Below are positions 869-7,554 of a stretch of DNA of 64,000 nucleotides, one piece after another; position 1 is the stretch's first letter; each line of letters starts with the position of its first letter. Source of the DNA: the human T2T-CHM13v2.0 reference genome, Homo sapiens. Position numbers and translations under genes: made by a program. The stretch lies in the NCBI RefSeq assembly GCF_009914755.1, contig NC_060935.1. The stretch is one strand, 5' to 3'. Under the pieces are notes generated by a model. The model was not told the origin of the DNA. It did no database searches and worked only from the letters and a program-made list of their open reading frames with translations.

Positions 869-1020
869 ACCCAAAGAGCTCTCTGCAGGATCTTCTAAAA
901 CCTCAGACACTGCAGAAGGAAGAGTTGATAACTGTGCAACCCACTGACCTTTCTGCCAGGGAGTTTGTGGTTTACCAGTATGGCCTCTCCATCCTGCACC
1001 TCCTTATCCCCCAGCTTCAT
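869..1020 (+). pseudogene. exon A: (D)PKSSLQDLLKPQTLQKEELITVQPTDLSAREFVVYQYGLSILHLLIPQLH
   Basis: ctctgtAG acceptor 867-868 (alternative cAG 887-888); CAT|GTAAGT perfect donor at 1021. Confidence 0.72.
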
Positions 1021-1654
1021 GTAAGTCTTGTTTCTGGCCTCTCTATGGAGCAGTTACTCATGGAGCCTAGAAGGTCAGGGTAGCCAGGAAGAAGCCTTTG
1101 AGATGGCAGATATTCCCTAGGATTAAGCACCTGGAACAGCAAACTTTCTAGTCTCTCCTTTAAGGGGATTTATGGGAGTTATTTTACCAATCCAAAGTCT
1201 AATCTCTCGAATGATATTAATCACAGGTAGAATGAATTAGTCACTTTCTACATGCCAGAAAATATTCTAATAACTTCCATTAATTAACTCATGTAATCCT
1301 CAAAAAACCCTATGAGACAGATACTATTATTTTTCCTATTTTAAAATTGAGCAGAAGAGACACAGTGGTTACATAAACTTACCCAAGATCACACAGCCAA
1401 AAAGGCAGAGCCAAGGTTAAAATCTAGGCATCATGGCTCAAATCTCTCTAGTCTAGTCAAGTTCTATTTAGAAAAGTAGTAAATTGATTGTCATATTTAG
1501 CATAAATATTAAATATGCAGTTACTCTTTCCATTTTCCTGTATACTAAGCCTACTTACCCTGTTGCAATTTAAATTAATGCCCCAATGCATTTACTTCTC
1601 ATCAATTTGGCTGATGCCACGTAGCTGAGATGCATGAGAATTTTTTAGCAAAAG

Positions 1655-1812
1655 GATAGGTTTGGTTTTGTTTTTTATTCTTTTCAGGCTCCAGAAATCA
1701 CCCTGAAGATTTCTTCTCATCTTCCTGCCATGGAAGCCCAAGGCAGTGCCTTCCAAGGTGCCTTCTTCTACCAGGTGCTGCAAATTCATTCCCAGATGTG
1801 GGTTATAAAATT
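1655..1812 (-). CDS. BTG4: BTG4 distal alternative terminal exon (codes (R)IL-stop, giving the 223-aa isoform, plus a short 3' UTR)
   Basis: minus strand: pyrimidine tract ...gaccccAG|A ATT TTA TAA (stop 1805-1803); completes the known human BTG4 C-terminus HRLDRIL; AATAAA at 1679-1674; 3' end approximate. Confidence 0.8.
1688..1774 (+). pseudogene. exon B: APEITLKISSHLPAMEAQGSAFQGAFFYQ
   Basis: long T-rich tract then cAG 1686-1687; CAG|GTGCTG donor; 87 nt, phase 0/0. Confidence 0.72.
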
Positions 1813-2856
1813 CTGGGGTCCAGTATAGATAAATGAAAGCAAAAAGAACAAATTTTATAATTTTTTCCTAAAATCCTGACATACTTTATTCCCTCCTGGA
1901 AATAAGTCATTTAGCTAAGGCATAATAAATGTCACAGTGTAAGAGCTTTCTCTAATCAGTAAAATGAATATGTTCTGGCTTGTGCCCAGAGAAGCATAAT
2001 AGCTTGGTGCCCTTTAATAGATCTCTGTCATTATCAAAGCCAGAGGTTCCAGGCTGGTATTTCCTATAAGAGTCATGGTTCCAGCTTCAGAAAATCCTGG
2101 ACAATCAGCATCTTTCTACAGAAAAGGATCTAAATTGTTCCTGTCCTGGCAGTTCTTCAGATATGTAGATTGGAAGTGCCTTGCTGGTAACTGCCTTAAA
2201 CACTGATGACAGTCTATTGCTAAACAATTCTGAGAGGAGAAACTGCTCATCGATACTGGAGGGTTAGAAAAAGGTTTATACTTGATTAGTAGGTTGTTGG
2301 GGGGTTTAATAAAACCAGAAACTACTCACATATGGTACTCTCCACACATTTCACTTGATCCTCAAAGCAACTCGATGAAATAGACGAGAATTTAATCCCA
2401 TTTTATGGATGGGTAAACGAACTCAGGTTGTGGTGCAAGTGCCGTGTGCCAGGAACTCAGCCAGGTGCCTTACAGGCATGGTCTCATTTACGACTCACAA
2501 CACTATGGGGTACTTTTGTTATCTTTGTTTTAGAAATTAGGAAATTGAAGCCCAGAGAGGCTAAGTAACTTCCCCAAGATCACAGAGTTAGCAAGAGTTA
2601 AAACTCGAGCCCAGGTGTGTTTGACACCAAAAACTCATAACCATGAGTCTATGCAGCTGCCACTCACAGCTGAGTCAAAGGATAGATCTCAGATTGTCTG
2701 ATTCCAAACTACCTGAAGTTTTTTCATGCCAACCTACTGTCTCTTAAGAGAATGAACAAGAGAGTTACTTCAAATCAACAGGCAAGAGAGGCGATTTGAA
2801 AACTTGATTACAATAAAGGCATGGAAGATGAAGAAAGCCTTGAGAGCCCTCTAAGG

Positions 2857-3022
2857 CAGTGATTCTCAAACTGTGATCCTTAGACCTCCTGAACCAACCA
2901 CTTGGGGAACCTGGGAAAAATGGAAGCACATAGACCCCACAGATCCAGGAATTTGGGGATGGGTCTCGAGAACAGAATCACCCCCTTGTGATTCTTATTA
3001 CACAAAAGTTTGAAAACCACTG
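2857..3022. mobile_element. MER5-type hAT-Charlie MITE
   Basis: terminal inverted repeats cagtgattctcaaact ... agtttgaaaaccactg. Confidence 0.65.
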
Positions 3023-3328
3023 CTTAAGGAAACAGTGATTGGAGGATATTGACAAAAGAGATACACAAGTAACTCTGAATTTCTAAGTTTGTTTTCTGTT
3101 AGATGGAGGCAGTAGGAAAACTTGGGAGACAGTGGAGCAAATGACTTATTCAGAGAGTTGAACTCAAACAATTTTTCCCCGGTCATCTGAATCTTCCCTT
3201 CAGCAAATTTCCATTAGGGCCAGAGAGTATTGTTTTAGACCATGTGCCATAAACCCTGAGAAAGAAACGGGCGGTGGGAATGTTCCCAGGGGCGGACATC
3301 TCTGTGTTTGGGTGTTTTCTCCTCTCAC

Positions 3329-4765: not shown

Positions 4766-5075
4766 TGCCAGGTGCAGTAGTTTACACCTGTAATCTCTGC
4801 ACTTTGGGAGGCCGAGGCAGAAAGATCACTTGAGCCCAGGAGTTTGAGACCAGCCTGGGCAACACAGTGAGACCCCATCTCTACAAAAATAAAATAAAAA
4901 TAAATTAGCCGGGCATGGTGGCACATACCTGTAGTCCCAGCTATTCAGGAGGCTGAGGCAGAAGGATCCATTGAGCCCAGGAGTTTGAAGCTGAGGCTGC
5001 AGTGAGCTATGATCACACCACTGCACTCTAGCCTGGGCAACAGAGTGAGATCCTATCTCAAAAAATACAATAAAA
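4766..5075 (+). mobile_element. Alu (AluJ-like)
   Basis: full dimeric Alu sequence with A tail. Confidence 0.9.
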
Positions 5076-5479
5076 CACTTTTTTGAAAGTATCTCAGCAT
5101 TTTAACTATTAAAAATAAAAATCATAAAATTTAAGTCTATGATAAGAAAAATATCATCCTGCACTAAAGGTTAATTCATTCTTATGAACAAGAACATATC
5201 ATGTTTCAATATTTATATCAAACTATAATTTTCAAAGCCACTTTTATATATAGTGTCACTCGATCCACCCAGCAATCCTGCAAAGTAGGTAGTGTCTATA
5301 CTTTTAGCCACATTATTGAAAAAGAAGATAAGGAATTTGCCCAAAGTTATAAAGCTATTTGTAGTGGTGGATCTGAGACTAGATTCTAGATTTCCTGAAT
5401 CCTGCTAAGTAATTGTCCCGTACACATATCTCCATCATTGAATCTCTATTAGTTACTAAGGCAGATTTATTTTGTGGGT

Positions 5480-6990
5480 TTGATAATGATGTCGGTAATC
5501 CAGACCACAGAATTCTGTTGGACCCCAATTCCCACAAATCACAGAGAACAGTCCATTTTCTGTGCTCATCCATCAGCAGCATTTGACATATCTGACCATA
5601 TTCTCCTCCTTGACATATTTTTTTCATTTGGCTCCCAAGACACTGGCCTCCTCTGGTTTTCCTCCTTCTCTGATTGTTCCTTCTCAGTCTTCTTTGCTGA
5701 TCCCTGCTCTTTTCTCCGGCCTCTTAATGTTGGAGGGCCAGGACTCAGTCCCGTCCCCTTCTCCAGTCTATATTTTCTGCCCTTGAAGGTCTCTTCTAGT
5801 CTTCCAGCTTTAAATCTCATCTATATGTCAATGACCCTCAAATTTCTATCTTCAACCCCAATTCTCTAACCCATACCTCCAACTGTTTATTGGCCATCTC
5901 CACCTGACTGTTTCAAACTCAACATGTCCAAAACGCAATTTTTAATTTCTTTCCAAACCTGCTCCACTCAAAACCTTCCCCCATCTCAACTGATAGAAAC
6001 TGTTCTTCAGGTTTTTCAGGCCAAAGCATCCCTTGAAACTCATCTGTTACACACACCCACAACCAATCCATCAGGAAATCCTGTTGTTCTACTTTCAAAG
6101 CATATCTAGAATCCAACCACTGCTCATCAACTACAATACCACCCTTGTGAAAAGGCCACCATTGCCTCTTGCCCGGATTACTATAATCCTTACTAATGGC
6201 TTCCTCAAGTCCACCCTTGTTTCTCTTCAGCCTACTTGCAACACAGCAAAGTGATCCTTTCAAAATGGAAATTGGATCTGCTCAAAATCTGCTGTGTCTC
6301 CCCAATTTACTCAGAGCAAAAGCCAAATAATATTGTCATGAGGCCTTATATCTCACTCTCTTACCTACTACCCTTCCCCTCATTCACTCAACTCCAACCA
6401 CACTTTCCTCCTCACTGTTCTTCAAGCACTAGGGACACTTCTCTCGAGGGTTCCCTGTGCCTGGAATACTCTTTCCCCTAGGGCAGTGTTTCTCACCCAG
6501 GAGGAATTTTTGTCCCCCAGGGGATATTTGGCAATACCTGGAGATGTTTTTGATTGGCATGACTCAGGAGAAGGGGTTGCCACTGACAACTAGTGGGTAG
6601 AGGCCAGGGATGCTGCTAAACAGCCTACAGTGCATGGGACAGCTCCCAGAGCAAAGAGTTACTCATCCCAAAATAGTGCCAATCCTGGTCTACCCCTGAC
6701 TCCCTTACCTCCTTCTTATCTTGGTTCAAATATCACCTTCTCAATGAGGCCTTCCCTGACTATCCAATCTTAATTTGCAACTCTTTTCCCCCTACTCAGC
6801 AGCTTTCTCTTAAGTTTTCCTATATCCTTTCCTAACACACTACATAATTTACTTACACTTGTTATTACTTTCCTTCCTCAGCTGGAATGTAAGCTCCATG
6901 AGGGCAGAGAGATTTGTTTCATTTCCTGATGTAGGCCATGTGCCAGGCTCACAGTAGGCTTGAGATGTATTTACTGTGTTAATGAACAAG
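5480..6990 (+). mobile_element. L2 (LINE-2) 3' fragment interrupted by MER20
   Basis: C/T-rich L2-like sequence ending aatgtaagctccatgagggcagag...; boundaries approximate. Confidence 0.7.
6483..6680 (+). mobile_element. MER20 DNA transposon
   Basis: cagtgtttctca...cccccaggggatatttggcaatacctggagatgtttttg...gtagaggccagggatgctgctaaaca. Confidence 0.8.
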
Positions 6991-7431
6991 TAGATTTATA
7001 TGGGCCCTGATGCAATATACTGAAACCACAATCTACCTGAGCTAACTATAAGACAGATAATAGCAAACATTTATTACCTTGCCATGTGCTACATGCCATG
7101 TTATGATTGAGAGTTTTACATACATCATCTCACTTAATCTTCTCATGCTCTTATAAGGTGGAAGCCACTCTTATTCCTAACTTATGGATGAGGAAACCGA
7201 GGCCTAGAAGTGAAAAAAAAAAAAACACCAAACTTGCCTAAGACATAGCAATAGTTGTGGAGCTGGAATGTTAGTCCTCTGCTAACCACCCCCTATGAAG
7301 AGATATTGCTTTAATTTAAAAGCAAAATTGTACATAGTACTCTCAGGTCCACATTCTGGCTAACAAGATCCAAGGGCACTTAAAATAAATGGTAACAAGA
7401 GTATTAACTCTGTCTTCCACATTCTCTACAG

Positions 7432-7554
7432 TATATTCATAAAAACAAAGATCTTCTGCTCTTCACCAGTATGGAACATTTCCTAAAAAGCATCCTCGCT
7501 GCAGAACAACAAATCCTAAGAAAACCAAGAAATCAATTTGGGAGTGAAGATAAG
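7432..7554 (+). pseudogene. exon E: YIHKNKDLLLFTSMEHFLKSILAAEQQILRKPRNQFGSEDK
   Basis: ttctctacAG acceptor 7430-7431; AAG|GTGAGA donor; read-through gives VRYPYDQ-stop (7576-7578) with AATAAA at 7660. Confidence 0.65.

What the first reader, a model, noticed from the sequence alone, without database searches (positions are those of the whole stretch)
869..7554. Hidden five-exon coding-like gene on the plus strand, convergent with and overlapping BTG4's long isoform
Seen: exons 869-1020, 1688-1774, 3329-3475, 3918-4115 and 7432-7554 each have a pyrimidine tract, a GT donor and no stop. All join in phase 0 into ~235 aa (..TDLSAREFVVYQYGLSILHLL..APEITLKISSHLP..SAFQGAFFYQ|SAENTLFIGRECLASVGSFVLLLIRCLAHI..DSSPAFLGSFYK|GLEAY..). 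The ORF track shows only parts of two exons. Five phase-compatible exons in unique sequence are unlikely by chance. Inference: this is the 3' end of a larger gene starting upstream of the window. From memory, unverified: the motif string resembles the C-terminus of giant uncharacterised Cys-repeat proteins (zebrafish si:ch211-286b4.4-like, mouse Gm32742/Gm9195-like). It would sit in a germline and motile-cilia neighbourhood (BTG4, miR-34b/c, HOATZ).
Basis: partly seen in the sequence, partly recalled or inferred. Interest (0 to 1): 0.85.

Follow-up and report, generated by a model that had tools for sequence, protein, structure and literature searches.

The report
Broken ancient gene beside BTG4
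The five exon-like stretches are probably the tail of an old, unnamed gene that is predicted as protein-coding in other mammals and a bird but is broken in the human reference, so it looks like a lost gene and not a hidden working one.

Summary
All five stretches are stop-free in the stated frames and have GT donors. Four of five have the stated AG acceptor. A donor at 1797 restores the frame, giving the chain 869-1020, 1688-1797, 3331-3475, 3918-4115, 7432-7554.

That chain beats Markov nulls (0 of 150 and 1 of 200 simulations reach 5). Its amino-acid composition is protein-like (41 of 5000 null draws reach it). The thresholds were set post hoc, and GC-rich real sequence gives longer chance chains.

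The key result lies 6-11 kb upstream on the same strand. Exons at chr11:111465916-111470503 match predicted proteins of seven mammals and a bird. In human they carry a frameshift, a TGA and a probably lost acceptor. They are single-copy. Their last exon ends in a donor, so 3' exons must follow.

Best reading: an unannotated unitary pseudogene, with the window exons as its likely 3' end. No cross-species evidence for the window exons themselves could be obtained. The "giant Cys-repeat protein" identity rests only on one sub-threshold Ephrin_rec_like match.

The parts
869..1020 (+). Candidate exon W1. It is 152 nt; the first 2 nt complete a split codon, followed by 50 codons.
   Evidence: Stop-free in that frame. 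Acceptor score 9.7 and donor gtaagt 8.8, with no repeat overlap. It is part of the best chain in the window. Its phase fits candidate exon E_f upstream. The parts of this gene that lie upstream of the window cannot be entered in this field. They are, on the + strand of chr11:
- E0, 111465916-111466011
- E_a, 111466702-111466872
- E_b, 111467194-111467540, with the frameshift
- E_c, 111467975-111468361, with the TGA
- E_d, 111469749-111469925, with no AG in front
- E_e, 111470342-111470503, the last verified exon
- candidate E_f, 111472447-111472564
- candidate E_g, 111473176-111473399
- Cys-rich ORF, 111458556-111458879
1688..1797 (+). Candidate exon W2.
   Evidence: Acceptor 12.7; donor 5.3 at 1774 and 5.9 at 1797. 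The chain search picks 1688-1797. It lies antisense inside the BTG4 exon 1559-1812.
3331..3475 (+). Candidate exon W3.
   Evidence: acceptor score -1.2 at 3329 and 10.7 at 3331; donor about 5.0. The first nt completes a codon begun in W2.
3918..4115 (+). Candidate exon W4, 66 codons.
   Evidence: Stop-free; acceptor 9.1 and donor 7.6. It is unique in the human genome at the protein level. Its composition score is the best of the five. No Pfam, PDB or short-protein homologue was found.
7432..7554 (+). Candidate exon W5, 41 codons. It has a strong donor. If left unspliced, the frame runs on to a TAG at 7576-7578.
   Evidence: Acceptor 9.5 and donor gtgaga 10.6. The open frame spans 7408-7575. 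No further + strand candidate passed the stricter filter (summed score 16 or more, non-repeat) between 7555 and 28000. The looser scan finds one at 9139-9345, but its frames look non-coding.
7660..7665 (+). AATAAA hexamer 82 nt after that TAG. This is a possible poly(A) signal if W5 is terminal. The reading is speculative.
   Evidence: Such hexamers are frequent here: 81 AATAAA/ATTAAA between 7555 and 28000.
1559..1812 (-). RefSeq BTG4 alternative 3' exon (NM_017589.4 uses 1657-1812). It is antisense to W2.
   Evidence: Annotation given with the finding.
7047..7203 (-). RefSeq BTG4 (Gnomon) exon lying in the W4-W5 intron.
   Evidence: Annotation given with the finding.

Best explanation
The plus strand between POU2AF1 and BTG4 carries the remains of an old single-copy amniote gene. 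RefSeq does not annotate it as a gene in human; it shows only two lncRNAs, LOC107984386 and LOC644277.

Shown: a block of exons 6-11 kb upstream of the window encodes a protein with no Pfam domain and a recurring [D/N]PxTG...P(I/V)LG motif. That protein is predicted in seven other mammals and a bird. The human copy of this block is broken by a frameshift, a nonsense codon and probably a lost splice acceptor.

Inferred: the five window exons, with corrected borders (869-1020, 1688-1797, 3331-3475, 3918-4115, 7432-7554), are the still-open 3' exons of that gene. They would be reached from the last verified exon through a candidate exon at chr11:111472447-564.

Inferred: in human the locus makes no full-length protein. 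Parts of it are transcribed as lncRNA. BTG4 read-through isoforms splice into antisense sequence across it.
For: Homologues. One search gave 5 hits at E<=1 among 15 scored candidates. One search gave 9 hits among 106 scored, including Manacus candei at E 5e-42.

Mapping to human exons with a frame change and a stop.

Lesions in the DNA.

Single copy. In one search, 6 of 7 whole-genome matches lie at this locus; the seventh is a 33-aa match at E 0.003. Searches found no paralogue for four exons.

The gene must continue 3'. E_e ends at a donor, and the models that go further read intron.

Window exons. They form the best phase-compatible chain in the window, 5 exons against 3 on the other strand. 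That length was reached in 0 of 150 and 1 of 200 Markov simulations. In one search, 5 of the 9 plus-strand candidate loci of the 64-kb window lie in 869-7554; 4 of these are reader exons, the fifth (6800-6888) looks non-coding, and W3 fell just under the donor threshold. The pooled amino-acid composition was reached by 41 of 5000 null draws and is like the true BTG4 and HOATZ exons nearby. The phases fit E_e -> E_f -> W1.

Upstream plus-strand transcription: RefSeq lncRNA exons with coding-looking frames.
Against: No homologue found covers any window exon. The nine models stop at or before chr11:111470569.

The direct search with W4 was blank, though it was limited to proteins of 36-115 aa.

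RefSeq has no plus-strand transcript in 869-7554.

GC content falls from about 0.52 to 0.40 near chr11:111475000. The codon-usage score of the window exons (0.044 per codon) is far below that of the verified exons (0.244). This score also fails on true BTG4 exons.

A good-looking candidate exon at chr11:111473176-399 fits no phase path to W1.

The chain thresholds were set post hoc. Real GC-rich sequence gives chance chains of up to 8.

All nine homologues are automatic, fragmentary predictions of 178-436 aa, and four run into intron. None shows that a protein is made.
Confidence: 0.6

Rival explanations
1. The upstream dead gene is real, but the five window exons are chance open frames with splice-like flanks. 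The gene's true 3' exons lie elsewhere between chr11:111470504 and BTG4, or have decayed beyond recognition.
For: Open AG..GT candidates are common. Phase-compatible chains of 5-8 occur on the wrong strand upstream. The codon score is near the null. GC content breaks near chr11:111475000. There is no homologue, Pfam or PDB match for any window exon. One of 200 simulations reached a chain of 5.
Against: The chain is the longest in the window on either strand and exceeds 349 of 350 simulations. The composition is protein-like at about 0.008. Under the stricter filter (summed splice score 16 or more, non-repeat) nothing beyond the window exons and the non-coding-looking 6800-6888 passes between chr11:111473620 and 111504000. 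The looser scan adds only window 9139-9345, which looks non-coding.
Confidence: 0.27
2. The five exons are part of a gene that still codes in human. One route would be an internal promoter and start codon downstream of the lesions, giving a protein of about 240 aa or more.
For: About 242 codons remain open with canonical sites. There is a possible stop and AATAAA just after W5.
Against: No annotated transcript exists on this strand. No start codon context or promoter was identified. No short human protein of 36-115 aa shares words with W4. The upstream exons of the same gene are broken.
Confidence: 0.06
3. One reading: the exons are the C-terminus of a giant protein made of many Cys-rich (ephrin-receptor-like) repeats, related to zebrafish si:ch211-286b4.4 and mouse Gm32742 or Gm9195.
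For: One Cys-rich ORF 17 kb upstream on the same strand has a weak Ephrin_rec_like match, and a near-duplicate lies 1.4 kb before it. In passages of a bioRxiv preprint (10.1101/650218), si:ch211-286b4.4 is listed among genes higher in wild-type zebrafish testis than ovary.
Against: The match is below Pfam's cut-off and is 1 of 147 segments scanned. Protein self-comparison of 1004 plus-strand segments found no repeat family apart from a DNA-level duplication. Only 2 Cys-rich modules were found in 150 kb. The named fish and mouse genes could not be fetched or compared.
Confidence: 0.15

Closest known systems
Predicted 'uncharacterized protein' models: LOC131835688 (Mustela lutreola, 436 aa), LOC101369480 (walrus), LOC111095841 (dog), LOC103796019 (marmoset), LOC101006929 and 'leucine-rich repeat extensin-like protein 5' (baboon), EI555_012677 (narwhal), E2I00_009156 (fin whale), LOC127482206 (Manacus candei)
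   Same: They share the exon order and sequence of human chr11:111465916-111470569 on the plus strand. Mammals are 63-93% identical per exon. The bird is 54% identical over 91 aa and 37% over 134 aa.
   Different: They read straight through the places where human has a frameshift and a TGA. All are fragments of 178-436 aa. None reaches the window exons. None has a Pfam domain in the two tested, P0006 and P0008.
Unitary pseudogenes of human, the class that includes GULOP and the urate oxidase pseudogene. These examples are recalled; I only saw them named in the listing.
   Same: A single-copy gene kept in other lineages and disabled in place in human, with no parent copy elsewhere.
   Different: The intact gene has no known function or name in any species seen here. 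Fixation of the lesions in people was not tested.
Ephrin_rec_like (PF07699) Cys-rich repeat proteins
   Same: One upstream ORF has the C..CPPGTF...C..C spacing and a weak match.
   Different: The match is below the gathering score, there is no array of repeats, and nothing links the window exons to this family.

Membership tests
Unitary pseudogene | Coding orthologues in other species read through the human lesions | tested here: met
   Baboon, marmoset, mink, walrus, dog, narwhal, fin whale and the bird read ...GGPMEDP... (bird...WGPVMEP...) in one frame. Five models cover the TGA site: four have R or Q there (baboon P0009, marmoset, mink, walrus) and the bird has L. All are predicted models only.
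Unitary pseudogene | Frame-disrupting lesions in the human copy | tested here: met
   There is a 1-nt frameshift in E_b and a TGA in E_c. E_d has no AG in front of it; the ancestral state of that site is inferred.
Unitary pseudogene | No intact copy or parent gene elsewhere in the genome | tested here: met
   In one search, 6 of 7 matches of P0006 lie at this locus, and the seventh is a weak 33-aa match. Searches found only self-matches plus weak hits at E above 2. Closed regions of the reference are not shown.
Unitary pseudogene | Orthologues lie at the same syntenic position | not testable with these tools
   The protein search gives no genomic context, only the lengths of the contigs.
Unitary pseudogene | Lesions are fixed in the species | not testable with these tools
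   Only the T2T-CHM13 reference was available.
3' exons of that gene (the five window exons) | Canonical splice sites, open frames and compatible phases | tested here: met
Met after moving the W2 donor to 1797 and the W3 start to 3331.
3' exons of that gene (the five window exons) | Phase-compatible path from the last verified exon | tested here: inconclusive
   E_e (phase 0) -> E_f (0, leaves 1 nt) -> W1 (needs 1 nt) fits. Candidate E_g at chr11:111473176-399 fits neither side.
3' exons of that gene (the five window exons) | Conserved as protein in other species | tested here: inconclusive
   (W4) found no candidate but could only see proteins of 36-115 aa. The nine homologues end upstream.
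3' exons of that gene (the five window exons) | Spliced transcripts join them | not testable with these tools
   Sequencing reads are off. RefSeq lists no plus-strand transcript there.
Ephrin_rec_like giant Cys-repeat proteins | PF07699 match at or above the gathering score | tested here: not met
   The match scores 18.0 bits against 23.1, in 1 of 147 segments scanned.
Ephrin_rec_like giant Cys-repeat proteins | Array of many Cys-rich modules | tested here: not met
   Two modules were found, and one is a near-duplicate cut by a stop.
Ephrin_rec_like giant Cys-repeat proteins | Window exons resemble the C-terminus of the named fish and mouse proteins | not testable with these tools
   Those proteins could not be fetched. 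Papers only list the gene names.

The most novel reading that the evidence does not exclude
An ancient vertebrate gene of a domain family not yet described, with a recurring DPxTG/PILG motif and possibly a Cys-rich extracellular start, sits unrecognised between POU2AF1 and BTG4. It was lost on the ape or human lineage. Its five 3' exons in the window stay open because they still code in human, through an internal start, for a germline or ciliated-cell protein of about 240 aa.
Probability: 0.06. Interest if true: 0.75.

Novelty: new member of a known kind. Interest (0 to 1): 0.45.

Why it matters
If correct, this adds one more gene to the short list of old single-copy genes lost in the human lineage. 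The intact form of this gene has no name, no domain and no known function in any species. It would explain two RefSeq lncRNAs and several odd BTG4 'long isoform' exons as by-products of a decaying gene. It would also point to a conserved amniote protein worth studying in mink, dog, baboon or chicken-like models. For human annotation the practical result is a pseudogene call, not a new coding gene.

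Tried and rejected
Pfam on the five window exons and on 8 and then 7 upstream ORFs gave only chance-level hits.

PDB sequence searches with six exons and with the profile A2 found nothing below E 0.4.

Own-genome protein searches found no paralogues.

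The codon-usage log-odds test was rejected as uninformative. Three of four true BTG4 exons score below zero, and the score tracks GC content.

A protein-level self-comparison looking for internal repeats found only a DNA-level duplication and chance hits on both strands: 11 hits on + and 9 on -.

BLASTP of the window exons against the nine homologues gave nothing below E 0.018 in a tiny database.

Literature. Searches for LOC644277, LOC107984386, the six orthologue LOC names, Gm32742, Gm9195 and ch211-286b4.4 gave only gene-list mentions (passages seen). The search for 'unitary pseudogene' plus BTG4 returned five listings. In the two whose matching passages I read, the BTG4 match was a DOI string of the form btg4xx. 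The other three I saw only as listings. I therefore found nothing in print on this gene in those searches. I did not ask for supplements, which are closed. Lists of candidate coding regions or of unitary pseudogenes in such files could bear on this.

Candidate exons 6800-6888 and 9139-9345 look non-coding.

A terminal-exon reading of W5 (stop at 7576, AATAAA at 7660) is possible but weak.

Full report
**The observation.** With a simple splice-site weight matrix (frequencies recalled from the classic consensus tables), four of the five stated starts have good acceptors and all have usable donors. The scores are W1 9.7/8.8, W2 12.7/5.3, W4 9.1/7.6 and W5 9.5/10.6. None overlaps a masked repeat.

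Exon 3 is mis-placed. Its AG is at 3329-3330, so the exon starts at 3331 (acceptor 10.7 there, -1.2 at 3329). A second donor at 1797 (score 5.9) adds 23 nt and restores the frame with a split Ile codon. An unbiased chain search picks exactly this path: 869-1020, 1688-1797, 3331-3475, 3918-4115, 7432-7554. Exon 1 starts with two bases of a split codon, so 'all in phase 0' is not right either.

**Is it more than chance?** Loosely defined open AG..GT units are common: 343 on plus and 315 on minus in the 150 kb I assembled from the window and nine upstream loci. In the GC-rich 20 kb upstream, phase-compatible chains reach 11 on plus and 8 on minus.

In the AT-rich window itself the picture differs:
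- 5 of the 9 plus-strand candidate loci of the whole 64 kb lie in 869-7554. Four are reader exons and one (6800-6888) looks non-coding. Bins further downstream hold 0-1.
- The best minus-strand chain is 3.
- A chain of 5 was reached by 0 of 150 order-5 Markov sequences (counts by maximum chain 1, 2, 3 were 61, 73, 16).
- It was reached by 1 of 200 order-4 sequences trained on window 1-10000 (counts for 1 to 5 were 57, 114, 23, 5, 1).

A codon-usage score had no power, because true BTG4 exons score negative. An amino-acid composition score was more useful. It was measured against 536 stop-free segments from the rest of the window. The pooled five exons score 0.046 against a null of -0.071 +/- 0.046, and 41 of 5000 draws reach that value. 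The scores fall in the range of the true BTG4 and HOATZ exons.

**What lies upstream.** RefSeq has no plus-strand coding gene between POU2AF1 and BTG4. It has only the lncRNAs LOC107984386 and LOC644277, and some of their exons translate into protein-like peptides. Scanning the 86 kb upstream showed more such units and a recurring [D/N]PxTG motif. Five copies cluster at chr11:111466777-111470378 on plus, among 12 regex hits on plus and 4 on minus in 150 kb.

A protein search with one human stop-free segment (179 aa) returned 5 hits among 15 scored candidates. A second search with the marmoset hit returned 9 among 106. The hits are predicted 'uncharacterized' proteins of marmoset, baboon (two models), dog, mink, walrus, narwhal, fin whale and the bird Manacus candei.

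tBLASTn places them on the human exons at chr11:111465916-6011, 111466702-6872, 111467194-7550, 111467975-8361, 111469749-9925 and 111470342-0566. Identities are 63-93% for mammals. For the bird they are 54% over 91 aa and 37% over 134 aa.

A whole-genome search with the mink protein found this locus only: 6 of 7 matches, with the seventh a 33-aa match at E 0.003. Four exon peptides also have no paralogue.

**The human copy is broken.**
- Where every other model reads ...GGPMEDP... in one frame, the human match jumps frame. The DNA has one base too few in a G/C run.
- Five models cover the next site: baboon, mink and walrus have R, marmoset has Q and the bird has L. Human has TGA next to a CGA codon.
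- The exon that begins ...MMRYPG has a pyrimidine tract but no AG in front of it in human. That this is a loss is my inference.

Baboon and marmoset models pass the first two sites. The lesions therefore arose after apes split from Old World monkeys, or later. I could not test apes or human variation.

**Link to the window.** The last verified exon ends in phase 0 at a GTATGT donor, and the mink model simply reads on into the intron. The real gene must therefore have further 3' exons before BTG4's own 3' end.

Under the stricter filter (summed splice score 16 or more, non-repeat), few candidates pass between chr11:111470504 and 111504000. Those that pass are several near 111471.0-473.6 kb, including E_f and E_g, then the window exons W1, W2, W4 and W5, and window 6800-6888. 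W3 misses the cut by 0.3.

E_f (111472447-564) starts in phase 0 and leaves one base, which is what W1 needs, so the path is E_e -> E_f -> W1...W5. E_g (111473176-399) looks coding but fits neither side.

After W5 the stricter filter passes nothing further. The looser scan adds 9139-9345, which looks non-coding. If W5 is left unspliced it runs to a TAG at 7576, and an AATAAA sits at 7660.

Several points count against the link. GC content drops from about 0.52 to 0.40 near 111475000. No homologue reaches the window. The only direct search (W4) was blank, within its 36-115 aa limit.

**What the gene was.** Neither the mink nor the bird protein has a Pfam match. The profile of the family has no PDB relative. 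The Atlas gave nothing. The structure predictor was closed.

Of 147 plus-strand ORFs scanned, one has a weak Ephrin_rec_like match: chr11:111458556-879, 18.0 bits against a cut-off of 23.1. A near-copy lies 1.4 kb before it. The named fish and mouse genes appear in papers only in expression lists.

**Verdict.** The upstream gene remnant is well supported (about 0.9). That the window exons are its 3' end is likely but unproven (about 0.65 given the remnant). Overall this is an unannotated unitary pseudogene, not a hidden working gene. I found nothing in print on it in the searches.

Noticed in passing
Upstream of the window: chr11:111457053-111457277 and 111458431-111458922 (L008:7053-7277 and 8431-8922): A local DNA-level duplication, 83-90% identical in several frames on both strands. 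Each copy carries the Cys-rich C..CPPGTF ORF, and the first copy is cut by a stop.
   Followed up: partly
Upstream of the window: chr11:111424362-111428304, minus strand: The lncRNA LOC100132078 is the source of GECPAR, a transcript of the POU2AF1 super-enhancer (passages of PMC9052922 seen). Much of the space 5' of the dead gene is therefore B-cell regulatory DNA.
   Followed up: partly
About chr11:111475000, 1 kb before the window start: GC content in 2.5-kb bins falls from 0.51-0.60 to 0.35-0.42 and stays low through the window.
   Followed up: no
window 4228-4518 and 4767-5075: Two Alu-like elements in opposite orientation lie in the W4-W5 intron. They are the only parts of 869-7554 with other copies in the genome. 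The family name is my recognition, not a tool label.
   Followed up: no
window 59031-59111 (+): The translation of this annotated HOATZ coding exon looks like an Alu-derived peptide. This is recognised from memory and not tested.
   Followed up: no
Upstream of the window: chr11:111461033-111461540 (L009:1033-1540), plus strand: Two adjacent ORFs, one of them an exon of lncRNA LOC644277, read like a small beta-sandwich domain (..VCLQVNDTLAF.. and ..PGIYVFRLSS..). There is no Pfam or PDB match.
   Followed up: partly
window 1657-1812 (-): The curated BTG4 isoform NM_017589.4 ends in an exon that adds only 10 coding bases. It lies antisense over candidate exon W2 of the dead gene.
   Followed up: no
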